A stretch of DNA of 64,000 bases from a phage. Location of the stretch: the sequence record PZ338877.1. One strand, written 5' to 3'. The notes beneath the pieces are model-generated. The model worked only from the letters and a program-made list of their open reading frames with translations. It ran no database searches and was not told where the DNA came from. The translations under genes were made by a program, and so were the position numbers. Positions 4,187 through 57,291 of the stretch are shown here, piece after piece. Position 1 is the stretch's first letter. Every line of letters starts with the position of its first letter.

Positions 4187-6421
4187 CTAAACACCACAAC
4201 CCTCGCAATAAGCATCTTGCAGTGCAGATTTACCTACACCAATGCGACTGTTAAGGTAGTACATGGTTTTCATACCTACTGAGTTGGCATAAATCATGTA
4301 CTTCAAAGCTTGAGCCAATGATACCTTCTTAGACTTTGCATAGTCAACATAGAAATCTGAAGAGATAGCTTGACCAGTGAACTTTTGAAAAATTGCATAA
4401 CAATCAATCAGGTCAAAGGTGTCAATATCCCAAGCAATTTCATAGACATACTTCAACTCTTCGTAATCTGGAACAATAAACAGTACGTTACCAGTTGCAG
4501 ACTTTTTAGTTAAAATAAAGTCACGAATTGGGTACAAGCCATTTGTCGTATTAGTTGCCAGTGAAGAACTCTCATTAGGCATGTAAGCTTCTAATACAGA
4601 GTTACGGATTCCACCATTTTCTTTAATACGTTGTGCTAAGTCATCCCAATCATAACGAAGTTTTGCATCATGCTTCTCATCAATCTTCCTGTTAGCTGTC
4701 TTTGGAGGAACCCAACCTTCAGGATATTTAGTGAACTGCATATACTCAGGCACACCACGTTCTTTAGCAAGTCTTAAAGAAGCTTCGTGTAAGTAGTAAG
4801 AGTGCATTTCAGCAAGCTCATGAAGCTTCGTCTTACCTGCTCTTGAAGAGTAGTTCACGTAGTTTTTCGCAAGGTAATGAGCCACATTTGTAAGGCCAAT
4901 CCCAACAGAACGACGCTTCTGGACATGGTTACGCATCGACGGATACGGATAATCCATAAGGTCAATAACGGAGTCAACCATTGCAAGAGCATAATAAGCA
5001 ACGTCAGCGTATTCATCTTCTGAAATTCTCCCTGCAACCAAACTAGCTAGGAAGCAAAGAGCTACCTCACCATCCTCTTTCACAGCGTCATCTCTGTAAA
5101 GGTCTGTCTCTTTCTCAAAGCCGTACACTGGCAACACAATTTCCATACAAAGATTTGACATCTTCAAAGGCTCTTTAAATGGTGTATGTGTGTTTGCATT
5201 ATTTGTGAAGAATGGATACACACGGCCTGTTGCATAACGCTGCTGGATAAACAGTTTAGCAATTTCACGAGCCTTTACTCGTCTGTGCTTAACACCTGAA
5301 TGCACTGCATGACCAACTGCCATAGCAAACTCATCAGCAGATGCTGTGTAGAACATGTCATAGAGCTTTGGTGCATCCTTGTAAGAGAATAGTAACCAGT
5401 CTGTATCATATTGAACACACTGCCAGAAATAATCATTTGTACCAAATGAGTAGTCCATCTCGTTAATACGTTTAGAAGGAACCGTTGTAGGATGCTTCAA
5501 ACGCAGTAAATCTTCAATCTGCGGGTCTAGAGCAGTGTAGAAGTTGTTAGCTGAACCACCACGACTCTTCTGTTTGTTTGCCTCTACAGATGAGCGTACA
5601 AGCTTGTAATAAGGCAGTTTACCCATGTGCTCAATAGTATTTTGACGGATACCATCACCAATAGTACGAGTCTCCATCAGCATCCCAATGCCAGCTTGCT
5701 TTGTAGTCATATCATAAGCAACCTTTGCAGCAATGCCTAGAGATTCAGCGGTATCATTTGCCTTAATCAAACAGCACGACGCATAACCTGATTTAGTAGC
5801 TCTTAAACCATTCAGATAAGGCGTAGGAGCGTTAATCTTCAGGTCAGATAGGTAAGTGTACAGCTTAATCACATCTTGCAGCCTACGGTGCTTTGGTTGC
5901 TTCTCAAAGGCTTTCATAGCCATACCCATAAACATAAATTGTGGTGACTCAAAAAGTCTTCCTGTTTTAATATCACGGATACCATACTTGTCTCTGAACT
6001 GTTTCAGGACTGCATAACCGTAAGAGATGTCTTTTGAGTGCACAATGTACCCTTGCAGATATTCAAGCTCTTCCTGAGAATAGTCCATCTTCTCCCAAAG
6101 TCCTGCTCTCTCCATATTTTTAACAAAGGTAACCAGCGTAGGAACCTTAGTAAAGCCTCCAAAGGCTTCTTTGTAGATAATCCCCAGAAGTAGCCGTCCA
6201 GCCATGTCTGAGTACTCTTGAGTTTGTTTATCAACACAAACATCAATCATGGCTTGGTGCATCTCTTTTGTAGTGCAACCCTCGTAGACACGTTTCATGG
6301 CTTCCATAGTGACTTCTGACCAGATAATTCCACGCTTATCTGCCCATGATGCCCACTTATTCAGTCTTTCTGGGTCAAAGTTTACTACTGTACCGTTTGA
6401 TTTTTTAATTGTCTTAATCAT
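4187..6421 (-). CDS. nrdA: ribonucleotide reductase class Ia alpha subunit
   Basis: 744 aa; C-terminal CEGCGV redox cysteine pair; typical RNR large-subunit size and context with nrdB. Confidence 0.88.
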   Translation of the reverse strand: MIKTIKKSNGTVVNFDPERLNKWASWADKRGIIWSEVTMEAMKRVYEGCTTKEMHQAMIDVCVDKQTQEYSDMAGRLLLGIIYKEAFGGFTKVPTLVTFVKNMERAGLWEKMDYSQEELEYLQGYIVHSKDISYGYAVLKQFRDKYGIRDIKTGRLFESPQFMFMGMAMKAFEKQPKHRRLQDVIKLYTYLSDLKINAPTPYLNGLRATKSGYASCCLIKANDTAESLGIAAKVAYDMTTKQAGIGMLMETRTIGDGIRQNTIEHMGKLPYYKLVRSSVEANKQKSRGGSANNFYTALDPQIEDLLRLKHPTTVPSKRINEMDYSFGTNDYFWQCVQYDTDWLLFSYKDAPKLYDMFYTASADEFAMAVGHAVHSGVKHRRVKAREIAKLFIQQRYATGRVYPFFTNNANTHTPFKEPLKMSNLCMEIVLPVYGFEKETDLYRDDAVKEDGEVALCFLASLVAGRISEDEYADVAYYALAMVDSVIDLMDYPYPSMRNHVQKRRSVGIGLTNVAHYLAKNYVNYSSRAGKTKLHELAEMHSYYLHEASLRLAKERGVPEYMQFTKYPEGWVPPKTANRKIDEKHDAKLRYDWDDLAQRIKENGGIRNSVLEAYMPNESSSLATNTTNGLYPIRDFILTKKSATGNVLFIVPDYEELKYVYEIAWDIDTFDLIDCYAIFQKFTGQAISSDFYVDYAKSKKVSLAQALKYMIYANSVGMKTMYYLNSRIGVGKSALQDAYCEGCGV

Positions 6422-20865: not shown

Positions 20866-20904
20866 CATCACTTAAGGGTCTTCTAAGAGGGTTTTTAAGT
20901 GATG
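20866..20904. repeat. 39-bp palindromic element, copy 1
   Basis: CATCACTTAAGGGTCTTCTAAGAGGGTTTTTAAGTGATG; near-identical copy at 22396-22434. Confidence 0.8.
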
Positions 20905-21035
20905 TACGGCAATGCAAGGCTAGGTCCGGTTATGTCAGGTCGGGTCCGGTTAGGTTCTGTGCGGGTAGTTAGTCTCAGCTACATTAAAATGAGACTTACC
21001 TTTTTAAAAGGTCTTTAAACAGGGTCTTTTAATAA

Positions 21036-21118
21036 GGTTTGGTCTGGTAGGGTAGGTTGGGGTAAGGTTAGGTAAGGTGAGGTAAGGTCGGGTTTAGTAT
21101 GGTATGGGTGGATGGTAG
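21036..21118. repeat. G/T-rich tandem short repeats (GGTNNG units)
   Basis: GGTCTGGTAGGGTAGGTTGGGGTAAGGTTAGGTAAGGTGAGGTAAGGTCGGGTTTAGTATGGTATGGGTGGATGGTAG. Confidence 0.8.
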
Positions 21119-21197
21119 TAGCCACGTTAAAAATCTACCAAGTTTCTAAAGAGTCTTCTGTTGAGGGTTCTTTACAAACAACTTAACAATCAACTAA

Positions 21198-22257: not shown

Positions 22258-22280
22258 AGCCTCTTCGGAGGCTCCTTTTT
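22258..22280 (+). terminator. rho-independent terminator
   Basis: stem AGCCTC/GAGGCT with TTCG loop then TTTTT. Confidence 0.65.
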
Positions 22281-22310
22281 AAAAGGTCTTTTAAGAGGGT
22301 CTTTTAATGA

Positions 22311-22365
22311 GGTAAGGTGCGGTCTGGTAAGGCATGGTATGGTTGGGTGAGGTGAGGTATGGGTA
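22311..22365. repeat. G/T-rich tandem short repeats
   Basis: GGTAAGGTGCGGTCTGGTAAGGCATGGTATGGTTGGGTGAGGTGAGGTATGGGTAG. Confidence 0.8.
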
Positions 22366-22395
22366 GTTAATCGGAGCTACATTAAAATTCGATTA

Positions 22396-22434
22396 CATCA
22401 CTTAAGAGTCTTCTAAGAGGGTTTTTAAGTGATG
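22396..22434. repeat. 39-bp palindromic element, copy 2
   Basis: CATCACTTAAGAGTCTTCTAAGAGGGTTTTTAAGTGATG; 10-bp arms CATCACTTAA/TTAAGTGATG. Confidence 0.8.
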
Positions 22435-22437
22435 CTC

Positions 22438-22512
22438 GGTCGGGTTTGGTCGGGTTTGGTAGGGTGTGGTTCGGTATGGTGTGGTTTGGTGTGGTATGGT
22501 ATGGTATGGAAG
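22438..22512. repeat. G/T-rich pentamer-like tandem repeats (GGTNT)n
   Basis: GGGTTTGGTCGGGTTTGGTAGGGTGTGGTTCGGTATGGTGTGGTTTGGTGTGGTATGGTATGGTATGG. Confidence 0.8.
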
Positions 22513-22545
22513 GATGGCAGTAGCCTTATAAAAAATCTGCCAAAT

Positions 22546-50061: not shown

Positions 50062-50137
50062 TGGAGAATCCGAAGGGACTCGAACCCTTATAAACCTGTT
50101 TTGCAGACAGGCACATATCCATTTCTGTCACGGATTC
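50062..50137 (-). tRNA. tRNA-Cys (anticodon GCA)
   Basis: minus-strand cloverleaf: T-arm AAGGG-ACTCGAA-CCCTT, anticodon arm CCTGT-TTTGCAG-ACAGG, acceptor CGGATTC, CCA encoded. Confidence 0.8.
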
Positions 50138-50141
50138 AAAT

Positions 50142-50234
50142 TGGAGGAAGATACCAGACTTGAACTGGTACACCGATTTCTCAGCTACTGGCAGTTTAGC
50201 AAACTGCTCCCTTACCTTTTAGGGTTAATCTTCC
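50142..50234 (-). tRNA. tRNA-Ser (anticodon GCU), class II
   Basis: T-arm ACCAG-ACTTGAA-CTGGT, anticodon arm GCAGT-TTAGCAA-ACTGC, 21-nt variable arm, 7-bp acceptor, CCA encoded. Confidence 0.75.
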
Positions 50235-50235
50235 A

Positions 50236-51033
50236 TTATTTCTGTAATGCGTTCTTCATTTCTGGTGTTGCAATAGTGTCAATCACACCAGTTTTACAAG
50301 CATCATCAAACCAGTCTGGTAAGATACCTGCTAAGAACCCATTGATATTCGTTTTAAGGTACTCTGCAATAAGGGCAGCTTCTTCTTCAATCATCTGCAC
50401 AACTTCATCTGCATAAGCTGTAATCTTCGAGATACCTTCATTAATCTTACTAACAGCTTGATTAGCTAAATCAGAAATAGTATCAAGACCTTTATCAATA
50501 GCATCCTGTAAGTCGCTTAATACACCATTAACGCCATCTAGTGTGCTGTTAATTGTATCCATAGCTTTTTGACCATACTCTGTAGCAACACCCATAATAC
50601 CACTAAATGGTGTACAACCAACTTGCTCTCCTGCTGCACCCATAACATTGGAGTAGCCTTTTGCTACCTGCATACGTGAGGAAAACTCATCAATAGATTT
50701 TTGACCATAATCTGTCAATGTTTTAGTAGTTGCTGTAGTGCTTGTCAGACTCGTTGTAAAGCTATTAAGCAGAACTGTTGTAAGTCCAGCAGCAATGAGC
50801 TTATCCTTCATTGTAGGGTCTGTTACAGAGCTAATAGAGCTTACAAGTGATGTAGAGGCAGCTACGGTTCCACCTAGAACTGCTGCACCAGTAATAAGGG
50901 GATTAGAAAACCCTCTACCGGTTTTTAAGAGATTAAAAATCTCCTTACCTTGTTCTGTCATCTCTTTCATTAAGCACCTTTGAAATTGGTAGTCCAGTGG
51001 GATTTGAACCCTCTTCTCATGTTTTTCAGACAC
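50236..51033 (-). CDS. hypothetical Ser/Thr/Ala-rich protein embedded in tRNA array
   Basis: 265 aa ORF between tRNA-Ser and tRNA-Phe. Confidence 0.45.
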   Translation of the reverse strand: MSEKHEKRVQIPLDYQFQRCLMKEMTEQGKEIFNLLKTGRGFSNPLITGAAVLGGTVAASTSLVSSISSVTDPTMKDKLIAAGLTTVLLNSFTTSLTSTTATTKTLTDYGQKSIDEFSSRMQVAKGYSNVMGAAGEQVGCTPFSGIMGVATEYGQKAMDTINSTLDGVNGVLSDLQDAIDKGLDTISDLANQAVSKINEGISKITAYADEVVQMIEEEAALIAEYLKTNINGFLAGILPDWFDDACKTGVIDTIATPEMKNALQK

Positions 51034-51063
51034 GCGCTTTAACCATATAAGCTACTTGGACTA
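50987..51063 (-). tRNA. tRNA-Phe (anticodon GAA)
   Basis: T-arm GTGGG-ATTTGAA-CCCTC, anticodon arm CATGT-TTTTCAG-ACACG; ends approximate. Confidence 0.65.
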
Positions 51064-51068
51064 TAAAT

Positions 51069-51144
51069 TGGGGTGACCTACGGGATTTGAACCCGTATAG
51101 ACCATGTTCACAGCATGGGTCATTACCATTTATGATAAGGCCAC
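51069..51144 (-). tRNA. tRNA-His (anticodon GUG)
   Basis: T-arm ACGGG-ATTTGAA-CCCGT, anticodon arm CCATG-TTCACAG-CATGG, D-stem TCAT/ATGA, CCA encoded. Confidence 0.8.
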
Positions 51145-51175
51145 ATTTAAGGACTCTCGTAAGAATCCTTAGAAG

Positions 51176-51251
51176 TGGCAGCGGCATAAGGATTTGAACC
51201 TTAATAAGACAGCTTCAGAGACTGCTGCATTGCCAGTTATGCTATACCGCT
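51176..51251 (-). tRNA. tRNA-Gln (anticodon CUG)
   Basis: T-arm TAAGG-ATTTGAA-CCTTA, anticodon loop TTCAGAG (rc CTCTGAA), D-stem GCAT/ATGC, CCA encoded. Confidence 0.75.
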
Positions 51252-51256
51252 AAATT

Positions 51257-51335
51257 TGGTACTCCATATCGGATTCGAACCGATACATAACACAGATTTT
51301 AAGTCTGGCCTCTCTGCCAATTGGAGTAATGGAGC
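51257..51335 (-). tRNA. tRNA with Leu-type anticodon UAA, short variable region
   Basis: T-arm ATCGG-ATTCGAA-CCGAT, anticodon loop TTTTAAG (rc CTTAAAA), 7-bp acceptor; only 79 nt. Confidence 0.6.
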
Positions 51336-51337
51336 AT

Positions 51338-51413
51338 TGGCGGGGGATGTTGGAATTGAACCAACTTCTTCGATTTCAAAGACCGAGGTTTTAACCTTGT
51401 AAACTAATCCCCT
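51338..51413 (-). tRNA. tRNA-Gln (anticodon UUG)
   Basis: T-arm GTTGG-AATTGAA-CCAAC, anticodon arm TCGAT-TTCAAAG-ACCGA, D-stem GTTT/AAAC, CCA encoded. Confidence 0.75.
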
Positions 51414-51421
51414 TTAAATCT

Positions 51422-51979
51422 TTACTTTCTTAGTGGATGAATAAAGAATGCCAACATAACTCTTTCCCTTGAGAATGCTCTTTCTTCTGGGACAACACTT
51501 TTAAGTTTCCATCCAACATAAATTCTCCAGTAGAATTGTTTACCAAAGACTTTAATTGATGGGATAAAGGCGAATAATCCCCAAGCATTACTGTTCCACA
51601 TTAGGAGATAACCTGTCTGATTATCTTCAGGGTCAGAACTTACGTTGATATTACCTTTCCACTTAGTAACATCTTTTACATCTCTTCCTAACACATGGTA
51701 AGAGAAGTTATAAGCTTTGTTTCTCCAGAGCCATCCAACTCTCTGCAAATAGACACCCAGCTTACCAATCTTTCTAATCTTAGCCCATCTTTTAATGTGA
51801 CCTTCATCACCATCAATTGGGTTGTCATATGTCTCCATCCATCTGAATCCGAAAGGTAGATGTCCTTTCTTCTCACTATAGAATGGAACTACAAAAGGTG
51901 CTAAGATAACTGCTAAGGTTGCTGCCAATGGGTCTAACAAAGCTAGGAAAATCCATGAAGCATACTTCAAATATCTCAT
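51422..51979 (-). CDS. membrane protein embedded in tRNA array
   Basis: 185 aa; N-terminal hydrophobic helices (ASWIFLALLDPLAATLAVILAPFVVPF). Confidence 0.45.
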   Translation of the reverse strand: MRYLKYASWIFLALLDPLAATLAVILAPFVVPFYSEKKGHLPFGFRWMETYDNPIDGDEGHIKRWAKIRKIGKLGVYLQRVGWLWRNKAYNFSYHVLGRDVKDVTKWKGNINVSSDPEDNQTGYLLMWNSNAWGLFAFIPSIKVFGKQFYWRIYVGWKLKSVVPEERAFSRERVMLAFFIHPLRK

Positions 51980-51998
51980 CTAAATAGCCTCTTTAAAT

Positions 51999-52074
51999 TG
52001 GTGCAGGATAAGGGATTCGAACCCCTATTAACAGCTTCGTAGACTGCTGCTCTATCCATTTGAACTAATCCTGC
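51999..52074 (-). tRNA. tRNA-Arg (anticodon ACG)
   Basis: T-arm AAGGG-ATTCGAA-CCCCT, anticodon loop TTCGTAG (rc CTACGAA), acceptor GCAGGAT/ATCCTGC, CCA encoded. Confidence 0.8.
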
Positions 52075-52188
52075 TTACCTACAAGAACACCATACAGTTT
52101 TTCACAATCTTTGTTTTTACGTCTGTTTAGGTATGACGCTCTAAACTTTTTTGCTATTGACTTATCACTCATAGTGCTCTCCCAAAAT

Positions 52189-52266
52189 TGGTGTTCCAAG
52201 ACGGATTCGAACCGTCACTAGTACAAGGTTTGAGCTTGCATCCTCTGCCAATTGGGATATTGGAAC
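52189..52266 (-). tRNA. tRNA with Leu-type anticodon CAA, class I-like (78 nt)
   Basis: T-arm GACGG-ATTCGAA-CCGTC, anticodon arm ACAAG-GTTTGAG-CTTGC, perfect acceptor GTTCCAA/TTGGAAC, A73, CCA encoded. Confidence 0.65.
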
Positions 52267-52267
52267 A

Positions 52268-52342
52268 TGGTGCTCACTAAAGGACTTGAACCTTTTTCTT
52301 CATCTTGTAAGGGTGATGTTTTACCATATAAACTAAGCGAGT
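52268..52342 (-). tRNA. tRNA-Val (anticodon UAC)
   Basis: T-arm AAAGG-ACTTGAA-CCTTT, anticodon loop TTGTAAG (rc CTTACAA), D-stem GTTT/AAAC. Confidence 0.7.
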
Positions 52343-52437
52343 ATGAAAGAGGTCTGAAGTTGTGCCGCTCACTCAACTCCGTGGAATTTGTTACGGTCTT
52401 CAGTTGACACCAGCGGTCTTTCACTTGACCTCTGAAT
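52343..52437 (-). ncRNA. structured non-tRNA element inside tRNA array (candidate small RNA)
   Basis: 95 nt between tRNA-Val and tRNA-Thr; closing 7-bp helix AGAGGUC/GACCUCU plus internal inverted repeats; lacks T-loop consensus; contains a GGTCTTCAG motif copy. Confidence 0.3.
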
Positions 52438-52513
52438 TGGTGCTCCCACAAGGATTCGAACCCTGATAAGTTGCTTACAAGGCAACCGTAATAGCCAATT
52501 ATACGATAGGAGC
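52438..52513 (-). tRNA. tRNA-Thr (anticodon UGU)
   Basis: T-arm CAAGG-ATTCGAA-CCCTG, perfect anticodon stem GTTGC/GCAAC with loop TTACAAG. Confidence 0.8.
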
Positions 52514-52520
52514 ATTAATT

Positions 52521-52595
52521 TGGAGCATCCAGAGGGAATCGAACCCTCAACCTCAGTTTGGAAGACTGTAATTTTCCCGTTTAAACTATGGATGC
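52521..52595 (-). tRNA. tRNA-Gly (anticodon UCC)
   Basis: T-arm GAGGG-AATCGAA-CCCTC, anticodon loop TTGGAAG, perfect acceptor GCATCCA/TGGATGC. Confidence 0.8.
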
Positions 52596-52601
52596 ACTAA
52601 T

Positions 52602-52677
52602 TGGTGGAGTCACTGAGAATTGAACTCAGTTCCCAAGTTTGCAAAACTCGAATTTTAACCATATAAACTATGACCCC
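52602..52677 (-). tRNA. tRNA-Ala (anticodon UGC)
   Basis: T-arm CTGAG-AATTGAA-CTCAG, anticodon arm CAAGT-TTGCAAA-ACTCG. Confidence 0.7.
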
Positions 52678-52683
52678 AATGTT

Positions 52684-52759
52684 TGGTACAGGTGGAGGGA
52701 ATTGAACCCATCGTCTTACTGATTAAGAGTCAGCCGCATAACCATTTTGCTACACCTGC
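52684..52759 (-). tRNA. tRNA-Lys (anticodon CUU)
   Basis: anticodon stem CTGA/TCAG with loop TTAAGAG; acceptor ACAGGTG/CACCTGC; paralogous to tRNA at 53998-54073. Confidence 0.7.
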
Positions 52760-52766
52760 ATTGATT

Positions 52767-52844
52767 TGGTAGGAGACAAGGGATTCGAACCCTCAAACAC
52801 CAACTTCTAAGGATGGTAGGTTTACCAATTACCGTCAATCTCCC
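52767..52844 (-). tRNA. tRNA with Leu-type anticodon UAG, class I-like (78 nt)
   Basis: T-arm AAGGG-ATTCGAA-CCCTC, anticodon arm CCAAC-TTCTAAG-GATGG, A73, CCA encoded. Confidence 0.6.
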
Positions 52845-53097
52845 ATTAAATCTTTTTAGAGAACTTCTAAGAACCTAAGCAACAAGGTTCCACAACAAGC
52901 TGTAATAACCTTAGAAGCCCTCTAAAAAGACCTAAATATGTCTTTGCATAGTCTTGTTTAATCCGGTGACTAGAACCTTTGGAGAGCTTGATATTATCTC
53001 TTCTCCGTGACACCTACTAGGTGCTTTATCAGTGTGTACGACAATACACGAGGGATAAACCGAAAATGCGAGCAAGCATGACGGTGTAAATCTTATT

Positions 53098-53188
53098 AGG
53101 CGGTAAGTAAAGGAGTCGAACCCTCACCGTATCTCTACAGTGGCAACAGTTTTCAAGACTGTTTGGCTGCCATTAGCCGCTACCTACC
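53098..53188 (-). tRNA. tRNA-Ser (anticodon UGA), class II
   Basis: T-arm AAAGG-AGTCGAA-CCCTC, perfect anticodon stem ACAGT/ACTGT with loop TTTCAAG, long variable arm. Confidence 0.7.
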
Positions 53189-53201
53189 CCTAATAAGACT
53201 T

Positions 53202-53284
53202 TGGCATGGGACGGAGGAGTTGAACCCCTTTGAAACGGTTTTGGAGGCCGTTGCTCATGCCTTAGAGTCTTAACATCGTCCCAC
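53202..53284 (-). tRNA. atypical tRNA-Trp-like gene (anticodon core CCA, 9-nt anticodon loop)
   Basis: T-arm GGAGG-AGTTGAA-CCCCT, acceptor ATGGGAC/GTCCCAC, CCA encoded; anticodon stem AACGG/CCGTT encloses 9 nt (tRNA sense CCUCCAAAA); D region about 8 nt longer than canonical. Confidence 0.5.
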
Positions 53285-53426
53285 ACTATAATTCGAAGCT
53301 TACCGTATTTTCGCAACACTGTAAAGCCCCTTCTCAGATTATTTACATGTTCTGGAAAACATGAGATACAGACCACCTCCTTACACGGAGACCCGATAAG
53401 GTCGTCTAAGCAATCTGCTAACTATT

Positions 53427-53503
53427 TGGCACACCCTACAGGATTCGAACCTGTAACTAACGATTTAGAAGACCGTTGCTCTATCCAATTGAACTAAGGG
53501 TGC
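53427..53503 (-). tRNA. tRNA-Arg (anticodon UCU)
   Basis: T-arm ACAGG-ATTCGAA-CCTGT, anticodon arm ACGAT-TTAGAAG-ACCGT, D-stem GCTC/GAAC. Confidence 0.8.
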
Positions 53504-53839
53504 ATTAATCTTTAAAGACTCTCTTAGAAAGCCCTTAAAGATGCCCACCTTATTAATCATACCGTGGGCGAGTACGCCAAATTCTTTGATGAGGGATTGG
53601 AAGACCTCACTGGTGTTTAGCCTATCAAGCTACTGCCAGAAAAACATTGTCGTTTGCATTTATTTTAAATTTGCAAAATAGACGCTACGCAACGAAAACT
53701 ATTCAGAATATGTACAACAAATTTCCCCACATTGTGTTACGTCTAACGCTCATGTATTGGTGTTTGAATTATACATATTGTGAAGTATTTTAGTTACTAT
53801 AAAGTGGTCACATCTTAATGTCAACAACTTTATTGAAAT

Positions 53840-53915
53840 TGGTACTGGTAGGTGGAATCGAACCACCGATGTTCCCTTATCAGGGGAGTGTTATAACCTT
53901 CTTAACTATACCAGC
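53840..53915 (-). tRNA. tRNA-Ile (anticodon GAU)
   Basis: T-arm GGTGG-AATCGAA-CCACC, anticodon loop TTATCAG, acceptor ACTGGTA/TACCAGC. Confidence 0.8.
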
Positions 53916-53916
53916 T

Positions 53917-53993
53917 TGGAGGTTCAGATGGGAATCGAACCCACATTCATAGGGCTTATGAGACCCCTGCATTACCTTATCTGCGACTGAACC
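53917..53993 (-). tRNA. tRNA with CAU anticodon (Met/fMet; three G-C pairs in anticodon stem)
   Basis: T-arm ATGGG-AATCGAA-CCCAC, anticodon arm AGGGC-TTATGAG-ACCCC, perfect acceptor GGTTCAG/CTGAACC. Confidence 0.75.
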
Positions 53994-53997
53994 ATAT

Positions 53998-54073
53998 TGG
54001 TAGAAGTGGAGGGATTCGAACCCATCGCCTGTCAGATTAAAAGTCTGCCGCATCACCATTCTGCTACACTTCC
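53998..54073 (-). tRNA. tRNA-Lys (anticodon UUU)
   Basis: anticodon stem CAGA/TCTG with loop TTAAAAG; acceptor AGAAGTG/CACTTCC. Confidence 0.7.
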
Positions 54074-54275
54074 ATTAAATTACCTTTGCAGTAACCTACG
54101 CAGACCTTGCTAAAGGGTCTGTAGAGTCATTTCCTCTTAAGCTAATCTAGAATCATGCTAAGGAAATTCATCGGCACTCATGGGACGACATAATTAGCCA
54201 CATAAGCTACTGCAAAGATAATTACCAGACCGTTGTTTATCATCTTAAGTGCTACCATTACACCAACTCGACATC

Positions 54276-54321
54276 TGCCGAGTGAAGGAATCGAACCTTC
54301 GCCTTTTCTTTACCGGAGAAA
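54276..54321 (-). pseudogene. tRNA-like fragment (3' half only)
   Basis: intact T-arm GAAGG-AATCGAA-CCTTC and 3' acceptor strand plus a 5-7-5 hairpin, but no complementary 5' acceptor strand; anticodon loop has C at position 33. Confidence 0.35.
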
Positions 54322-54336
54322 TAGATTGTTTAAGTT

Positions 54337-54360
54337 TTGCTGTAAACGGTCTTCTGTAAA
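54337..54360. repeat. short repeat family copy (TTGCTGTAAACGGTCTTCTGTAAA)
   Basis: one of 4-5 copies of TTGCTG(Y)A(W)(W)(Y)GGTCTTCTG within tRNA array. Confidence 0.7.
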
Positions 54361-54423
54361 TTTGTTGAGCCAGACCAAGTTTTAAATTTTTCAAAATTAA
54401 ATTGGCTTGAAATTTTAAGTAAC

Positions 54424-54444
54424 TTGCTGTATTTGGTCTTCTGC
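54424..54444. repeat. short repeat family copy (TTGCTGTATTTGGTCTTCTGC)
   Basis: same motif family. Confidence 0.7.
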
Positions 54445-54530
54445 TCCTTTAAAGAATACTCGTAAGAACTCTTTAAGGGAGGGGCTAAATAGCCCTCTCA
54501 AAACATCATCTTGAAATACTTATTATAATT

Positions 54531-54608
54531 TGGCGGTTACGAAGGGATTTGAACCCTCATCATCTCCCGTGACAGGGGAGTATTTTAACCAGATTAAACT
54601 ACATAACC
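54531..54608 (-). tRNA. tRNA-Asp (anticodon GUC)
   Basis: T-arm AAGGG-ATTTGAA-CCCTC, perfect anticodon stem CTCCC/GGGAG with loop GTGACAG. Confidence 0.8.
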
Positions 54609-54614
54609 TTTATT

Positions 54615-54702
54615 TGGTGTGCCGTGTAGGAGTCGAACCTACCGAGTCTCAATGACAAGGGATTTACAGTCCCCACCGCTACCATCTACGGGATAACGAC
54701 AC
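54615..54702 (-). tRNA. tRNA-Tyr (anticodon GUA), class II
   Basis: T-arm GTAGG-AGTCGAA-CCTAC, anticodon arm AGGGA-TTTACAG-TCCCC, 15-nt variable arm. Confidence 0.75.
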
Positions 54703-54773
54703 ATTTTATTATTCTATTCAGGCTAAGGACTTGCACCTTACAAATCGGTGAGCAATCGCTTCTCTCCTAAATT

Positions 54774-54850
54774 TGGCGGTTAGTCAGGGATTCGAACCCT
54801 GTGCCATTCGCTTAACAGGCGACCGCACATACCTTATGTGCTTCCTAACC
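54774..54850 (-). tRNA. tRNA-Asn (anticodon GUU)
   Basis: T-arm CAGGG-ATTCGAA-CCCTG, anticodon loop TTAACAG, D-stem GCAC/GTGC. Confidence 0.7.
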
Positions 54851-54902
54851 TTAATACATTGCCAGACCGTGTTTTTTTCTTTTATCCGCAAAAAGTAGTT
54901 TG

Positions 54903-54927
54903 TTGCTGCATACGGTCTTCTGCAAAA
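54903..54927. repeat. short repeat family copy (TTGCTGCATACGGTCTTCTGCAAA)
   Basis: same motif family, immediately 3' of tRNA at 54929. Confidence 0.7.
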
Positions 54928-54928
54928 T

Positions 54929-55005
54929 TGGAGGCGGGTGCAGGAGTCGAACCTGCCGATACCATGCTAATGAGACATGTGAGACGCCCTTTCTCTATAC
55001 CCGCA
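54929..55005 (-). tRNA. tRNA with CAU anticodon (second copy; Met or Ile2-type)
   Basis: T-arm GCAGG-AGTCGAA-CCTGC, anticodon arm CATGC-TAATGAG-ACATG; 1:72 unpaired; U at position 37. Confidence 0.6.
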
Positions 55006-55069
55006 ATTCTTAATGACCAGACCAAATCTCTTCTTTGTCCGATTTACCTTCAGATGAATAAGATTAAGT

Positions 55070-55094
55070 TTGCTGTAATTGGTCTTCTGTCAAA
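55070..55094. repeat. short repeat family copy (TTGCTGTAATTGGTCTTCTGTCAAA)
   Basis: same motif family, immediately 3' of tRNA-Glu. Confidence 0.7.
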
Positions 55095-55096
55095 AC

Positions 55097-55174
55097 TGGC
55101 GTTCCAGAAGGGATTTGAACCCTCAAATATCCACTTTGAAAGAGTGGTGACTTTACCATTTTGTCTACTGGAAC
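55097..55174 (-). tRNA. tRNA-Glu (anticodon UUC)
   Basis: T-arm AAGGG-ATTTGAA-CCCTC, perfect anticodon stem CCACT/AGTGG with loop TTGAAAG, perfect acceptor. Confidence 0.8.
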
Positions 55175-55181
55175 ATTAATT

Positions 55182-55258
55182 TGGTCTCTGTTGGAGGACT
55201 TGAACCTCCGGCCTTACCGCCCCAAACGGAACGCTCTACCAAGCTGAGCTAAACAGAG
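55182..55258 (-). tRNA. tRNA-Pro (anticodon UGG)
   Basis: T-arm GGAGG-ACTTGAA-CCTCC, anticodon loop CCCCAAA, D-stem GCTC/GAGC, perfect acceptor. Confidence 0.8.
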
Positions 55259-55423
55259 ATAAACTTTTCAAACTCTATGTAACCACTTTAACATTATTTT
55301 TTAGTGGTTGTCAAGAACTTTTTTAAAATATTTTTCAGTATCTTAGAAAAGCTCTCATTTCGTTTCTATGTAGAACATATTAAAGGGTATCAAACACATT
55401 GTCAATACCCTTTTTAAAACTTT

Positions 55424-56839
55424 TTACCAGATGTAACGGTCAATCATTACTGCTTTGAGCATTACGCTGATTGGGTCAAACTTCTCACCGCCAAGAAGAG
55501 CTTTTAAAGTGGCTGGAGAGAACCCTGATACCATTGCTACACCATTATCCTTAACAGATACTTCGCAAGTACCATTACGGTTTGCTAAGTACCAGAATAC
55601 TAGTTGCGGCATTTCGTATCCAGCTTTTTTGTACTTACTCTGAATTGCTTCAAAGTTTGTACGACCATTTGCACCATCAACCTGATTAAACTCCATATCA
55701 GAGAAGATAATGAGCTTACTTGGCATATCTTTCTGAGTCAAGTTGTTTCTCTTACCTACCTCAAGGATACGGTCAAAAGCTGCTTGTAAGTTAGTTGAGC
55801 CATATTCAACATGACGCATTACCTGACGGTGACGGTTTCGTAAATCACCACTCAGTTCAATGAAATGAGGGTTTGTTGAATAGACCATTAACTCATCTTT
55901 AAAGCAACCTGTATTGCGTTCTGCTACATACAAGGCAAGTGATACACCAATATCAAGGGCAGTAATTGAGCCAAGATTCACCCAAGACATTGAGCTTGAA
56001 ACATCAGTCATACATAAGATGTTTTCACCTTCTGCCATCCAGTTTGGTAGTGCTTTCCACTGCTCATTAGCGACATCAGCATTACCATACTTGATAGATT
56101 TAATCACATCGTATGGGTAAACAGCACCAGCGTTAATCTTGGCCTCACCTTTTGAGAGGGACTCGATGTAAGCTTTGTAACGTTCCCCATCTTTACGGCT
56201 AAAGAGCTTTTGGTAACGTGCAGCAGCGAGTGAAGGAATCTTGCTGTAGTCAATCTTACCAAACTCATTAGCAGAGATTTTTTGCTCAACCGTATCAGAT
56301 AGTGCAGATAACAGTGTGCGATACTCCTTCTCACTTAAGTTTGCAAACTTACAGAAACGTTTTACAAACTGTTTATGGCGTGGTTTTACTCGTGGCAACC
56401 ACTTAGCTGCTAAACCTGCTGTTGCAGGGTCTAGTAATGCTGATTCTAAATGTTTGAAGGCATCTGTCTCAAAACGAGTACCTACGAAGATTTTGAAGTC
56501 ATCAAAACGACCAAGTTCTGCAATCTTATCCATAATGCGAAGAACCTGTGTAGGTTCTAAAACTTTATCTTCAATTGCTTGAAGTAAAACAGTTCGGAAA
56601 GCTTTACGCTCACCCATACCTTCTCGTACATCTCGCATATGCAGTAAAATACGAACTGCAACATCAACATCCTCACGCAAAGCTTTGTAGAACAGGTCTG
56701 GTAAGATTTCTACATTGCTACGGCTTGAGCCAGCGGCTTTGTAAAAATCTACCAGAGCAGACATTGATGAAGTATGGTTTACAGCACCATTTTCAGTTCG
56801 ACCTGCATGAAGGTGCGCATGTTTAAATAACTCGCTCAT
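55424..56839 (-). CDS. vWA-domain protein with N-terminal helical domain (Ro60/TROVE-like or DUF2828-like, putative)
   Basis: 471 aa; C-terminal von Willebrand A fold with MIDAS-like DVSSSMS and later LIIFSDMEFN; N-terminal about 270-aa helical region; first gene upstream of tRNA array. Confidence 0.55.
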   Translation of the reverse strand: MSELFKHAHLHAGRTENGAVNHTSSMSALVDFYKAAGSSRSNVEILPDLFYKALREDVDVAVRILLHMRDVREGMGERKAFRTVLLQAIEDKVLEPTQVLRIMDKIAELGRFDDFKIFVGTRFETDAFKHLESALLDPATAGLAAKWLPRVKPRHKQFVKRFCKFANLSEKEYRTLLSALSDTVEQKISANEFGKIDYSKIPSLAAARYQKLFSRKDGERYKAYIESLSKGEAKINAGAVYPYDVIKSIKYGNADVANEQWKALPNWMAEGENILCMTDVSSSMSWVNLGSITALDIGVSLALYVAERNTGCFKDELMVYSTNPHFIELSGDLRNRHRQVMRHVEYGSTNLQAAFDRILEVGKRNNLTQKDMPSKLIIFSDMEFNQVDGANGRTNFEAIQSKYKKAGYEMPQLVFWYLANRNGTCEVSVKDNGVAMVSGFSPATLKALLGGEKFDPISVMLKAVMIDRYIW

Positions 56840-56919: not shown

Positions 56920-57291
56920 TTATTTTTTGAGAGTCGCTACAGCAGAGAACGTTGGTTTGTTATCTGTCTGTGGCTGACCACCATTATCAGTGGTCTTCTT
57001 AGTGTCTGCTGCAAGTGCTTTCATCTCACCTGCTGAGTGAGTAAAGATAGTTTTACCGACCTCAATCATGCTCTTGATGGTTACGTCATCTGTGTTTAAC
57101 CCGAACTCTGCAAGTTTGGCAGCGTCCCTTGTAACAATCGCCTCAAACAACTTTGCAGCAAACTCAGCAGAATTATCAATGGTCAGTTGAGCTTTTACGA
57201 GTGAGCTTTTGTTACGTGAACCTTTTGGTCTTCCAGATGGGTTACCAGACTGGCCTTTTTTAAACTGGCCTTTGTTTGTTCTGTTTTTCAT
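56920..57291 (-). CDS. hypothetical protein with basic N-terminal GNPSGRPKG (AT-hook-like) motif
   Basis: 123 aa; N-terminus KGQFKKGQSGNPSGRPKGSRNK. Confidence 0.45.
   Translation of the reverse strand: MKNRTNKGQFKKGQSGNPSGRPKGSRNKSSLVKAQLTIDNSAEFAAKLFEAIVTRDAAKLAEFGLNTDDVTIKSMIEVGKTIFTHSAGEMKALAADTKKTTDNGGQPQTDNKPTFSAVATLKK

What the first reader, a model, noticed from the sequence alone, without database searches (positions are those of the whole stretch)
54337..55094. Repeated 21-25-nt motif TTGCTG(Y)A(W)(W)(Y)GGTCTTCTG scattered through the tRNA array
At least four copies (54337-54360, 54424-54444, 54903-54927, 55070-55094), plus a variant at 52388-52403, share the core GGTCTTCTG preceded by TTGCTGYA. 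Two copies abut the 3' ends of tRNAs. In RNA sense the motif is CAGAAGACC...UACAGCAA. Candidates are a processing signal, a protein-binding site, a mini-promoter family, or remnants of a small mobile element. The same GGTCTTCT core also occurs in the loop of the 39-bp palindromes at 20866 and 22396.
Basis: seen in the sequence. Interest (0 to 1): 0.55.

Follow-up and report, generated by a model that had tools for sequence, protein, structure and literature searches.

The report
Y-RNA-like small RNAs between phage tRNAs
The repeated motif is the conserved 5' end of four small structured RNAs lying between the tRNA genes of a Felix O1-like phage, and they are most likely the so far unidentified RNA partners of the Ro60-like protein encoded just upstream, which was recently reported as an anti-defence factor.

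Summary
In detail: TTGCTGNANNNGGTCTTCTG occurs four times (expected 0.07), only inside the tRNA array.

Read on the tRNA-sense (minus) strand, each copy is the 5' half of a terminal module: outer stem, AGA bulge, helix AGACCNN(N), unpaired U(A/G)CAGCAA box. It pairs 60-130 nt downstream with NNGGUCU-G-outer stem. The variable positions covary.

One element (54222-54359) encloses a permuted tRNA-like domain in the order variable arm, T arm, closed acceptor hairpin, D arm. That is the YrlA (bacterial Y RNA) architecture. The other three are short.

The gene immediately upstream (55424-56839, DUF2828+DUF7788) models as a Ro60/TROVE+vWA protein. It is 97.5% identical to Bas63 gp130, a published Ro60-like anti-defence factor whose RNA partners were only guessed at.

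The same module, with different helix sequences and the same (A/U)ACAGCAA box, lies next to DUF2828 genes in every other gene-bearing phage lineage where I read the non-coding DNA. Those phages infect Yersinia, Vibrio, Listeria, Campylobacter, Sinorhizobium and Mycobacterium. Erwinia phage Omen, a subfamily relative, lacks both the gene and the module.

Verdict: new members of a known kind (phage Y-RNA-like RNAs). Binding is inferred, not shown. Untested lead: Dictyostelium Class I RNAs share the same stem, box and 3' CUG layout.

The parts
54222..54359 (-). E1: long Y-RNA-like element. Terminal module UUAC-AGA-AGACCGUU-UACAGCAA...AACGGUCU-G-GUAA encloses a permuted tRNA-like domain: variable-arm hairpin, T arm GAAGG-UUCGAUU-CCUUC, 7-bp acceptor-like hairpin closed by a tetraloop, D arm GUGU-AAUGGUA-GCAC. 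Holds the motif copy at 54337-54356.
   Evidence: Fold. Over six relatives all 27 pairs are kept in 100% of cells, and 3 pairs of the acceptor-like hairpin change on both sides. A cross-genus alignment gives 15 of 22 pairs with compensatory change. A model built from it finds full-length matches in unrelated DUF2828 phages.
54367..54446 (-). E2: short element. GAGC-AGA-AGACCAA-AUACAGCAA...UUGGUCU-G-GCUC. Holds the motif copy at 54424-54443.
   Evidence: Conserved in SUSP2, Mordin, Mijalis and L124, with a G-U change in the outer stem (GCUC to GUUC).
54859..54925 (-). E3: short element between tRNA-Met and tRNA-Asn. UUGC-AGA-AGACCGU-AUGCAGCAA...ACGGUCU-G-GCAA. Holds the motif copy at 54903-54922.
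   Evidence: R1 match of 41.1 bits. The outer stem covaries between relatives (UUGC/GCAA against UUAC/GUAA).
55014..55092 (-). E4: short element between tRNA-Glu and tRNA-Met. UGAC-AGA-AGACCAA-UUACAGCAA...UUGGUCU-G-GUCA. Holds the motif copy at 55070-55089.
   Evidence: R1 match of 42.2 bits. In Mordin and Mijalis the helix is AGGCCAA/UUGGUCU, a G-U pair that is valid only in the tRNA-sense RNA.
55424..56839 (-). Gene for a 471-aa Ro60-like protein (TROVE-like ring plus vWA domain with a complete MIDAS motif: D279, S281, S283, T349, D381). It is the presumed protein partner and the orthologue of Bas63 gp130.
   Evidence: Pfam DUF2828 + DUF7788. PHROG 850 'RNA-binding protein'. AlphaFold model with pLDDT 88.6. 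The top 12 Foldseek PDB hits are all Ro60/TROVE over the full length, E 3e-8 to 3e-6, TM 0.40-0.66. Invariant MIDAS residues. 97.5% identity to bas63_0130.
55285..55405 (-). Two sigma-70-type promoters (TTGACA-17-TAATAT at 55405-55377; TTGACA-18-TAAAGT with TG at 55314-55285). They lie between the Ro60-like gene and tRNA-Pro and presumably drive the tRNA / Y-like RNA array.
   Evidence: 10 of 12 matches each. Function is inferred.
54096..54126 (-). Possible fifth, minimal copy: hairpin CUAC-AGACC-[CUUUAGCAA]-GGUCU-GC-GUAG, with the box variant in the loop. It lies inside a 149-nt strongly folded spacer (54074-54222).
   Evidence: spacer z = -6.6. Compensatory change AGACC/GGUCU to AAACC/GGUUU in Mijalis. 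Analogous CUUAGCAA-loop hairpins occur in L124 and L125.

Best explanation
The motif is the conserved 5' half of the protein-binding end of four Y-RNA-like small RNAs, called E1-E4 here.

They are transcribed with the phage tRNAs from two promoters just downstream of a Ro60-like gene. They are set free when RNase P and the 3' trimming enzymes cut out the neighbouring tRNAs. Each element begins 3-5 nt after one tRNA and ends 6-8 nt before the next, or abuts another element.

In each RNA the 5' and 3' ends pair. The result is a short outer stem, a 3-nt 5' bulge (AGA) opposite a single bulged G, and a 7-8 bp helix (AGACCNN/NNGGUCU). This is followed directly by an unpaired U(A/G)CAGCAA box.

I propose that this bulged helix plus box is what the phage Ro60-like protein (55424-56839) recognises, in the way Ro60 binds the bulged terminal helix of Y RNAs.

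E1 also carries a tRNA-shaped domain with a closed acceptor stem and no anticodon loop, as in bacterial YrlA. This domain could tether the protein to a tRNA-recognising enzyme or exoribonuclease, or act as a tRNA decoy. E2-E4 are short versions, comparable to YrlB or the phiLo Yrl RNAs, that could gate or titrate the protein.

Shown: the repeat, the structure and its covariation, the fold class of the protein, and the co-occurrence of protein and module across phages. Inferred: transcription and processing, physical binding, and every downstream function.
For: (1) Statistics. Four copies against 0.07 expected.

(2) Structure. All four fold with the same terminal module. Across 26 distinct modules from 14 loci, every tabulated position is a standard pair in every module. 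Several pair types occur at most positions: 5-6 types at inner position 6 and outer position 2. The changes AGACUGU/ACGGUCU and AGGCCAA/UUGGUCU give G-U pairs only in the tRNA-sense RNA.

(3) E1. All 27 pairs are kept in 100% of cells, against 38-48% when the partners are slid, and the acceptor-like hairpin is rewritten three times.

(4) The protein. The adjacent protein has the Ro60 fold. It is 31-34% identical to mycobacteriophage proteins annotated 'Ro-like RNA binding protein'.

(5) Co-occurrence. In Yersinia phage P778 and in L126 the gene is followed by a tRNA array. That array holds the same module with other helices (GGACUGU, GGAUUC, GAAGCU, GUAGUU...) and the same box. Using the background rate of a permissive descriptor in about 1 Mb of control DNA (6.3e-5 per base and strand), I expect about 0.04-0.06 hits in each of these stretches. 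The counts are 4, 3 and 4, giving Poisson P of about 1e-5 to 1e-7 (my arithmetic). The module also lies beside the gene in Vibrio phi-pp2 and L128, LeBron, and Listeria AG20, Campylobacter F358 and Sinorhizobium phiM7.

(6) Co-absence. Erwinia phage Omen, of the same subfamily and with 27 tRNAs, has neither the gene nor the module.

(7) Bridge to YrlA. A model built only from Felix-group E1 finds L126 9680-9818 at 56.9 bits and L126 9993-10116 at 65.8 bits. Rfam YrlA matches L126 9707-9815 (40.9 bits, E 2.7e-7), LeBron 4511-4619 (39.8 bits) and phiM7 (35.2 bits).

(8) Literature. YrlA has the order V-T-AS-D with a closed acceptor and lies next to Ro60 (PMC4201824; bioRxiv 10.1101/312249). Bas63 gp130 is Ro60-like and counters the ppl defence, and its authors guessed that Y RNAs hide among the tRNA genes (PMC11482910).
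Against: There are no expression, end-mapping or binding data for these RNAs.

Rfam YrlA gives no match to any window element even at E <= 10. The relatives that do match stay below the gathering score (about 35-41 bits against 69).

The published Ro-binding motif GNCGAAN0-1G / CGAA is absent. The conserved letters here are AGAAGACC and ACAGCAA, so recognition, if it exists, differs in detail.

gp130 expressed alone from a plasmid or from T7 restores plaquing on the ppl strain (PMC11482910). Its only tested activity therefore does not need these RNAs.

Fold energies of the short elements are not unusual (z -0.7 to -1.8). The case rests on covariation, not on stability.

In L129 I found no clear module within 6 kb of the gene.
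Confidence: 0.72

Rival explanations
1. The elements are structured spacers that serve tRNA precursor processing or stability, and have nothing to do with the Ro60-like protein. They could be entry or stop sites for RNase E, RNase III or exonucleases, or folding insulators between tRNAs.
For: They exactly fill tRNA spacers in tRNA sense. A neighbouring spacer (54074-54222) is a very stable long hairpin that looks like a processing site. gp130 works against ppl without them.
Against: This does not explain three things. First, why the same box and bulged-helix layout recurs next to DUF2828 genes where there is no tRNA array, as in the gene leaders of Listeria AG20, Campylobacter F358 and L128, and downstream of the gene in LeBron. 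Second, why E1 keeps a complete tRNA-like core with a closed acceptor. Third, why Omen's array, which lacks the gene, also lacks the module. The helices of 7-8 bp are too short for RNase III.
Confidence: 0.14
2. The elements are tRNA-derived decoys or pseudo-tRNAs that act on their own, for example as baits for host tRNA-targeting nucleases or tRNA-modifying enzymes. The terminal helix would serve only to protect the ends.
For: E1 has a tRNA-like T arm, D arm and acceptor-like stem. L126 10563-10692 is an unpermuted tRNA whose anticodon arm is replaced by the module's helix and box. Phage tRNA arrays are linked in the literature to defence evasion (cited in PMC11482910).
Against: Three of the four elements have no tRNA-like part, yet they keep the terminal module and box. 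That module is the most conserved feature across phyla, and it tracks the protein gene rather than the tRNAs.
Confidence: 0.08
3. It is a DNA-level feature: a family of weak promoters or operators, or the inverted-repeat ends of a small mobile element that spread through the array.
For: TTGCTG resembles a -35 hexamer. Each element has complementary ends, like terminal inverted repeats.
Against: No promoter-like site is found at any copy. All copies have one orientation. Positions are syntenic across Felixounavirus, Suspvirus and Mooglevirus. Substitutions are compensatory or G-U, which selects for RNA pairing. There are no copies elsewhere in the 64 kb.
Confidence: 0.03

Closest known systems
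YrlA, the bacterial and phage Y RNA-like A (Rfam RF02553; Chen et al. 2014, PMC4201824; structure in bioRxiv 10.1101/312249)
   Same: It is encoded next to a Ro60-type gene. The 5' and 3' ends pair into a terminal stem. It has a tRNA-like domain in the order variable arm, T arm, closed acceptor stem, D arm, with no CCA end and no anticodon loop. E1 has all of these. Relatives of E1 in L126, LeBron and phiM7 match the Rfam model with E from 2e-4 to 3e-7.
   Different: No window element matches RF02553, and the relatives are below its gathering score. The GNCGAAN0-1G motif is replaced by AGAAGACC plus an unpaired (A/U)ACAGCAA box. The elements sit inside a tRNA array rather than in an rsr-rtcBA operon. 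The protein is the DUF2828 type, not a Pfam TROVE match.
Short Y RNAs without a tRNA-like domain: Salmonella YrlB, and Thermus phage phiLo Yrl1/Yrl2, which bind the phage Ro60 (PMC12135203)
   Same: E2-E4 are short RNAs (67-80 nt) that share only the terminal module with the long form and are encoded beside a phage Ro60 homologue. The phiLo Ro60 structures (9kop, 9l5y) are the two best structural matches of the window protein.
   Different: The phiLo RNAs were picked by a CGAA motif in a large internal bulge, and binding was shown by experiment. Here the box is ACAGCAA and nothing has been tested.
Mycobacteriophage 'Ro-like RNA binding protein' loci (for example LeBron gp53)
   Same: The protein is 31-34% identical over its full length. 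Downstream of LeBron gp53 lie three elements, each a stem followed by (A)CAGCAA, and the middle one has T, closed-acceptor and D arms.
   Different: The helix sequences differ (GGACUC, GGUCAC, GAGCGC). There is no tRNA array around them, and no AGA/G bulge pair.
Dictyostelid Class I RNAs (Rfam RF01414; Kjellin et al. 2021, PMC7919456)
   Same: These are about 60-nt RNAs with a 6-bp 5'-3' stem of variable, covarying sequence. An unpaired 11-nt box CCUUACAGCAA lies directly after the 5' strand, and its near-invariant positions are U3, C6, C9, A10 and A11. The ends are conserved as AAG...CUGU. The phage box keeps exactly C6, C9, A10 and A11, and many elements end ...CU-G-(U/G/A). RF01414 is the only non-tRNA Rfam family that the short elements hit repeatedly: 26.8 and 26.3 bits in L126, 22.8 in L137, 15.3 for window E2.
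   Different: All scores are below the gathering score of 41.5. They are eukaryotic nuclear genes with their own promoter element. The known direct binder is an RRM protein. Whether Dictyostelium has a DUF2828 protein was not testable here. The resemblance may be convergent or due to chance.
Permuted tRNA genes (Cyanidioschyzon type), recalled from general knowledge
   Same: In E1 the 3' half of a tRNA (T arm, 3' acceptor strand) precedes the 5' half (5' acceptor strand, D arm).
   Different: There is no anticodon loop and no bulge-helix-bulge junction. The acceptor is closed by a 4-nt loop without CCA, so it cannot mature into a decoding tRNA.

Membership tests
Y RNA / YrlA (RF02553) | Encoded next to a Ro60 (TROVE + vWA) gene | tested here: met
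   The gene at 55424-56839 lies 165 nt upstream of the first tRNA. Its model matches Ro60 structures over the full length. The family includes annotated mycobacteriophage Ro-like proteins.
Y RNA / YrlA (RF02553) | 5' and 3' ends pair into a terminal, bulged stem that carries the protein-binding site | tested here: met
   The structure is met: outer stem, AGA bulge opposite a bulged G, and a 7-8 bp helix in all four elements, with covariation. That this stem is the binding site is inferred.
Y RNA / YrlA (RF02553) | tRNA-like domain in the order V arm, T arm, closed acceptor stem, D arm | tested here: met
   Met for E1 only: 27 of 27 pairs kept and the acceptor-like stem changed on both sides. 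E2-E4 lack this domain, as YrlB does.
Y RNA / YrlA (RF02553) | Conserved 5' motif GNCGAAN0-1G (CGAA) | tested here: not met
   The conserved letters are C-AGA-AGACC and U(A/G)CAGCAA. Only a loose likeness exists (AGAAG against CGAAG).
Y RNA / YrlA (RF02553) | Score at or above Rfam's gathering threshold (69 bits) | tested here: not met
   There is no YrlA match in the window at E <= 1 over 6.1 kb or at E <= 10 over 261 nt. Homologous elements in L126, LeBron and phiM7 reach 35-41 bits.
Y RNA / YrlA (RF02553) | Physical association with the Ro60 protein | not testable with these tools
   This needs RIP/CLIP or gel shifts.
Dictyostelid Class I RNA (RF01414) | Short 5'-3' stem, adjacent unpaired CCUUACAGCAA box, AAG...CUGU ends, about 60 nt | tested here: inconclusive
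   The layout and 7-9 of the 11 box letters are shared. Scores of 15-27 bits are below the gathering score of 41.5.
Sigma-70 promoter family | -35 and -10 hexamers with 16-18 nt spacing at the motif | tested here: not met
   No site is found at any copy. The sites found lie upstream of the array.
Miniature mobile element | Variable presence between relatives, both orientations, copies outside one locus | tested here: not met
   Positions are syntenic in three genera, the orientation is single, and there are no copies elsewhere in the window. Target-site duplications were not examined.
Permuted tRNA gene | Both halves of a decodable tRNA, including the anticodon loop, joined after processing | tested here: not met
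   E1 has no anticodon loop, and its acceptor is a closed hairpin. ARAGORN does not call it.

The most novel reading that the evidence does not exclude
The unpaired (A/U)ACAGCAA box beside a covarying terminal helix may be the universal recognition element of the DUF2828 branch of Ro60-like proteins. On that reading, the abundant Dictyostelium Class I RNAs are eukaryotic members of the same RNA class and partner a DUF2828-type protein. Class I RNAs have a stem, a CCUUACAGCAA box, a 3' CUGU end and no known function. DDB_G0281243, a protein of unknown function pulled down with a Class I RNA, would be the first candidate to check. This would link a phage counter-defence RNP to a developmental non-coding RNA family thought to be unique to social amoebae.
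Probability: 0.2. Interest if true: 0.85.

Novelty: new member of a known kind. Interest (0 to 1): 0.62.

Why it matters
Felix O1-like phages are widely used Salmonella and E. coli phages. Their Ro60-like protein (Bas63 gp130) was recently reported to defeat a bacterial defence system and to boost an unrelated phage, and its authors could only guess that Y RNAs hide among the tRNA genes.

This analysis gives exact coordinates, structures and a consensus for four candidate partner RNAs. It shows that the same box-plus-helix module accompanies the protein family in phages of at least five bacterial phyla or classes; 710 records in the phage collection carry a homologue. It also supplies mutations to test: the box, the bulge and the helix.

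It flags regions that current annotations either leave blank or cover with small antisense ORFs.

If the Dictyostelium parallel holds, it would give a first molecular handle on Class I RNAs.

Tried and rejected
- Rfam scans of the array and of the elements alone found no curated family for E1-E4. E1 gives only a partial tRNA hit of 22 bits.
- The IMG/VR scan for CAGAAGACCNNNNNCAGCAA returned mostly single chance matches. Only Felix-like contigs had 2-4 copies.
- My first structural descriptors were too loose. The CAGCA-based one was swamped. The CAGCAA one is passed by about 10% of CAGCAA sites in control DNA (128 of 1218), so I used it only as a background rate.
- The promoter, terminator and mobile-element readings were rejected.
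- The variant at 52388 and the palindromes at 20866/22396 were rejected as members.
- No box was found in the leader of the window's own Ro60-like gene, unlike L127, L128, AG20 and F358.
- Model R1 did not list E2 in the window. I did not resolve why; E2 meets the descriptor.
- Unavailable: the AlphaFold-database fold library, the supplement of Chen et al. 2014, and Avesson et al. 2011. For that reason I could not check phage lists, Dictyostelium DUF2828 or DDB_G0281243.
Full report
**What the window is.** The region around the finding is 100% identical over 236 nt to Salmonella phage GE_vB_7A and 95-99% identical to many Felix O1-like phages. ARAGORN finds 26 tRNA genes at 50062-55258, all on the minus strand. 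RNA sense therefore runs from high to low coordinates.

- The 'variant' at 52388 lacks the rest of the signature.
- The palindromes at 20866 and 22396 are copies of an unrelated repeat, and only one of them contains GGTCTTCT.

On the minus strand each copy reads NNNC-AGA-AGACCNN(N)-U(A/G)CAGCAA. It is matched 60-130 nt downstream by NN(N)GGUCU-G-GNNN.
- The variable letters are complementary within each element: UUAC/GUAA, GAGC/GCUC, UUGC/GCAA, UGAC/GUCA for the outer stem; GUU/AAC, AA/UU, GU/AC, AA/UU for the inner extension.
- The unit is therefore a 67-138 nt element closed by a two-part helix. A 3-nt bulge lies on the 5' side and a single G on the 3' side, and an unpaired box follows the helix.
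- The four elements are E1 54222-54359, E2 54367-54446, E3 54859-54925 and E4 55014-55092. They fill tRNA spacers. E4 and E3 start 4 and 3 nt after tRNA-Glu and tRNA-Met, and end 8 nt before the next tRNA.

**E1 contains a permuted tRNA-like domain.** Inside its terminal module lie, in order:
- a variable-arm-like hairpin (UUUCU-CCGGUAA-AGAAA);
- a canonical T arm (GAAGG-UUCGAUU-CCUUC);
- a 7-bp hairpin closed by a tetraloop, in the place of the acceptor stem;
- the dinucleotide UG, then a D arm (GUGU-AAUGGUA-GCAC).

Rfam sees only the V and T part, as a partial tRNA match of 22 bits. This order (V, T, closed acceptor, D, with the anticodon stem opening into the terminal helix) is the published architecture of YrlA, the tRNA-mimicking bacterial Y RNA (PMC4201824; bioRxiv 10.1101/312249).

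**Conservation and covariation.**
- All four elements are present at the same positions in Suspvirus SUSP2 and in Mooglevirus Mordin, Mijalis, 3HA14 and Sf16.
- In E1 the acceptor-like hairpin is ACUCGGC/GUCGAGU here. It is ACACG/CGUGU in SUSP2 and ACCCUUC/GAAGGGU in Mordin.
- Over six sequences all 27 pairs are standard in every cell, against 38-48% when partners are slid by 1-3 columns. Three pairs change on both sides.
- Single changes give AGACUGU/ACGGUCU (Mijalis) and AGGCCAA/UUGGUCU (Mordin, Mijalis). These are G-U pairs only in the tRNA-sense transcript, which fixes the functional strand.

**The neighbouring gene.** The ORF at 55424-56839 (minus strand, 471 aa) ends 165 nt before tRNA-Pro.
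- It matches Pfam DUF2828 and DUF7788 and PHROG 850 'RNA-binding protein'.
- An AlphaFold model built on 42 homologues has mean pLDDT 88.6.
- Its twelve best Foldseek matches in the PDB are all Ro60/TROVE proteins aligned over the full length. They include Thermus phage phiLo, Xenopus, human and Deinococcus Ro60, with E 3e-8 to 3e-6 and TM 0.40-0.66. Generic vWA domains follow only at E of about 4e-3.
- A sequence profile touches only the Ro60 vWA/MIDAS region weakly, at E 0.5. The MIDAS residues are invariant in the family.
- tblastn finds homologues in 710 phage records. These include mycobacteriophage proteins annotated 'Ro-like RNA binding protein' at 31-34% identity.
- The orthologue in Bas63 (bas63_0130, 97.5% identity) is the gp130 of the PhageMaP preprint. 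That work reports structural similarity to Ro60 and a role in countering the ppl defence. [quoted passage not shown] No RNA was identified there.

**Does the module travel with the gene?** I read the DNA around more distant homologues.
- L124 (63% identity): same motif, three copies in the array after the gene.
- Yersinia phage P778 (54%): the gene is followed by an array of 26 tRNAs. Three spacers hold UGC-ACA-GGACUGU-UUACAGCAA...ACAGUCC-A-GCA, UGC-ACA-GGAUUC-UAUUCAGCAA...GAAUCC-A-GCA and AAGC-AUA-GGACUC-UAUUCAGCAA...(T arm)...GAGUCC-A-GCUU.
- L126 (51%, a 143-kb phage): five elements in the 690 nt directly after the gene, with helices GAAGAU, AGAAGAA, AGAAGCU, GUAGUU and AGAAGGU and boxes UUACAGCAA, AUACAGCAA and UUUCCGCAA. 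Three of them have T, closed-acceptor and D arms. There is also an unpermuted tRNA-like gene whose anticodon arm is replaced by the helix and box.
- Vibrio phage phi-pp2: GGUA-GAG-AGACAAUAU-ACAGCAA...GUAUUGUCU-G-UACU inside its tRNA array, and a box in the leader of the gene itself.
- L128: a 175-nt element between the promoter and the gene.
- Mycobacteriophage LeBron: three elements after gp53, each a stem followed by (A)CAGCAA, the middle one YrlA-like.
- Listeria phage AG20: three tandem elements in the gene leader (AGGAAUC-UAACAGCAA...GAUUCCU-G, and two more).
- Campylobacter phage F358: two elements in the leader.
- Sinorhizobium phage phiM7: one element after tRNA-Lys and one YrlA-like element.
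- L129: I saw no clear module within 6 kb of the gene.
- Erwinia phage Omen, a member of the same subfamily with a 27-tRNA array: no homologue of the protein (best tblastn E 0.078 over 57 residues) and no module in the array.

**Statistics for that comparison.** A deliberately loose descriptor was used: CAGCAA, inner helix of at least 6 bp, 2-3 nt 5' bulge, 1-nt 3' bulge, outer stem of at least 3 bp. It hits 128 times in 1,015,330 control bases on both strands, or 6.3e-5 per base and strand. I then expect 0.04-0.06 hits in the relevant single-strand stretches of the window (900 nt), L125 (800 nt) and L126 (690 nt). The counts are 4, 3 and 4. Poisson tails are about 4e-7, 2e-5 and 1.5e-7 (my arithmetic).

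Across the 26 distinct modules, every one of the nine tabulated stem positions is a standard pair in all of them, with up to six pair types per position. The box keeps C, C, A, A at fixed places.

**Formal link to YrlA.**
- Rfam's YrlA model does not match the window.
- It does match L126 9707-9815 over its full length (40.9 bits, E 2.7e-7), LeBron 4511-4619 (39.8 bits) and phiM7 1062-1126 (35.2 bits). All are below the gathering score of 69.
- A covariance model built only from six Felix-group E1 sequences (R1) finds the same L126 element at 56.9 bits and another at 65.8 bits. It also finds two elements in the Yersinia phage (about 32 bits), the T-acceptor-D core of the LeBron RNA (30.8 bits) and the phiM7 RNA (27.2 bits).
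- R1 finds nothing in Omen. In 34 control loci of about 0.35 Mb it also finds nothing at E <= 1. R1's E-values are rough by construction.
- In the window R1 finds E1, E4 and E3 and no further copies.
- E1 is therefore connected to YrlA through intermediates, but it fails the curated threshold and lacks the published GNCGAAN0-1G motif. I call the elements Y-RNA-like and do not file them in RF02553.

**Mechanism.** Two strong sigma-70-type promoters lie between the gene and tRNA-Pro. None lies at the motif copies.
- I infer co-transcription with the tRNAs and release by tRNA processing, with the paired ends protecting the RNAs.
- I infer that the bulged helix plus ACAGCAA box is the binding site of the Ro60-like protein. 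This is by analogy with Ro60 binding the bulged terminal helix of Y RNAs, and because this is the only feature shared by all elements in all lineages.
- E1's tRNA-like domain would act as YrlA's is proposed to act: as a tether to a tRNA-recognising factor or exoribonuclease (compare the phiLo Ro60-Yrl-PNPase complexes, PMC12135203), or as a decoy.
- A caution: gp130 alone rescues T7 on the ppl strain. The RNAs are therefore not needed for that activity. They may gate, localise or retarget the protein instead.

**Novelty.** Phage Ro60 homologues with Y-RNA-like partners are known in mycobacteriophages, CcrColossus, Bacillus phage G and phiLo. For Felix O1-like phages I found only the guess in the PhageMaP preprint. 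In the Felix-group records I read, the annotation either leaves these spacers blank or places small antisense ORFs over them.

The elements are thus new members of a known kind. Two additions appear to be new in the literature held here: the (A/U)ACAGCAA box as a shared hallmark of RNAs beside DUF2828-type Ro-like genes, and their interleaving with tRNAs.

**An unexpected resemblance.** The only non-tRNA Rfam family hit repeatedly by the short elements is the Dictyostelium Class I RNA family: 26.8 and 26.3 bits in L126, 22.8 in AG20 and 15.3 for E2. All are below the gathering score of 41.5.
- Class I RNAs are described as about 60-nt RNAs with a covarying 6-bp terminal stem and an unpaired CCUUACAGCAA box directly after the 5' strand. 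The near-invariant box positions are U3, C6, C9, A10 and A11, and the conserved ends are AAG...CUGU (PMC7919456).
- The phage box keeps the same C6, C9, A10 and A11. Many phage elements end ...CU-G-U/G/A.
- One of four proteins pulled down with a Class I RNA, DDB_G0281243, has no known function (bioRxiv 10.1101/2020.04.05.026054).
- DUF2828 is mentioned in several plant papers. I could not check Dictyostelium, so this remains a lead and not a result.

Noticed in passing
window 54074-54222 (-): The 149-nt spacer between E1 and tRNA-Lys folds into a very stable long hairpin (MFE -55.2 kcal/mol, z -6.6) with a closing helix of about 22 bp and internal branches, one of which is the mini hairpin with a CUUUAGCAA loop. 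It is unannotated. It may be an RNase III-type processing site or another small RNA.
   Followed up: partly
window 53205-53285 (-): A tRNA-like sequence (GGGACG...GGGGUUCAACUCCUCCGUCCCAUGCCA) is not called by ARAGORN. Rfam gives only a weak tRNA-Sec-type match (23 bits). It is conserved in L124 and L125.
   Followed up: no
window 56920-57291 (-): A DUF5681 gene sits directly upstream of the Ro60-like gene here, and also in L124 and in Yersinia phage P778. This conserved gene pair might be functionally linked.
   Followed up: no
L126 10563-10692: An unpermuted tRNA-like gene (Rfam tRNA 47.8 bits with a 50-nt insertion) has its anticodon arm replaced by AACUUC-UUAGA-GAAGUU followed by UUACAGCA. 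It looks like an evolutionary intermediate between a tRNA and the permuted Y-like RNAs.
   Followed up: partly
L127 ~5973; L128 5810-6000; L137 2100-2400; L138 2340-2530: In Vibrio phi-pp2, L128, Listeria AG20 and Campylobacter F358 the box-plus-helix module lies in the 5' leader of the DUF2828 gene itself, in one case overlapping the ribosome-binding site. This suggests autoregulation. The window's own leader has no box.
   Followed up: partly
L136 4430-4704 (Bas63 record MZ501086.1): Two small antisense ORFs (bas63_0137 and bas63_0138) are annotated over the E1/E2 region. They are probably spurious calls on RNA genes.
   Followed up: no
window 20866-21140 and 22274-22545 (+): A separate repeat family: 39-nt palindromes (CATCACTTAAG...CTTAAGTGATG) and CCTTTTTAAAAGGTC units, each followed by GGT-rich, roughly 6-nt periodic tracts, in 3-4 copies. 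It is unrelated to the tRNA-array motif.
   Followed up: partly
L137 5213-6455 (Listeria phage AG20): An RtcB-type 'tRNA splicing ligase' gene lies about 1.2 kb downstream of the DUF2828 gene. This echoes the bacterial rsr-yrlBA-rtcBA arrangement.
   Followed up: no
RF01414 matches: L126 9534-9592 and 9619-9670; L137 2123-2178; window 54371-54438: The short elements repeatedly give sub-threshold matches to the Dictyostelium Class I RNA model, through a shared layout of stem, UUACAGCAA box and 3' CUG.
   Followed up: partly
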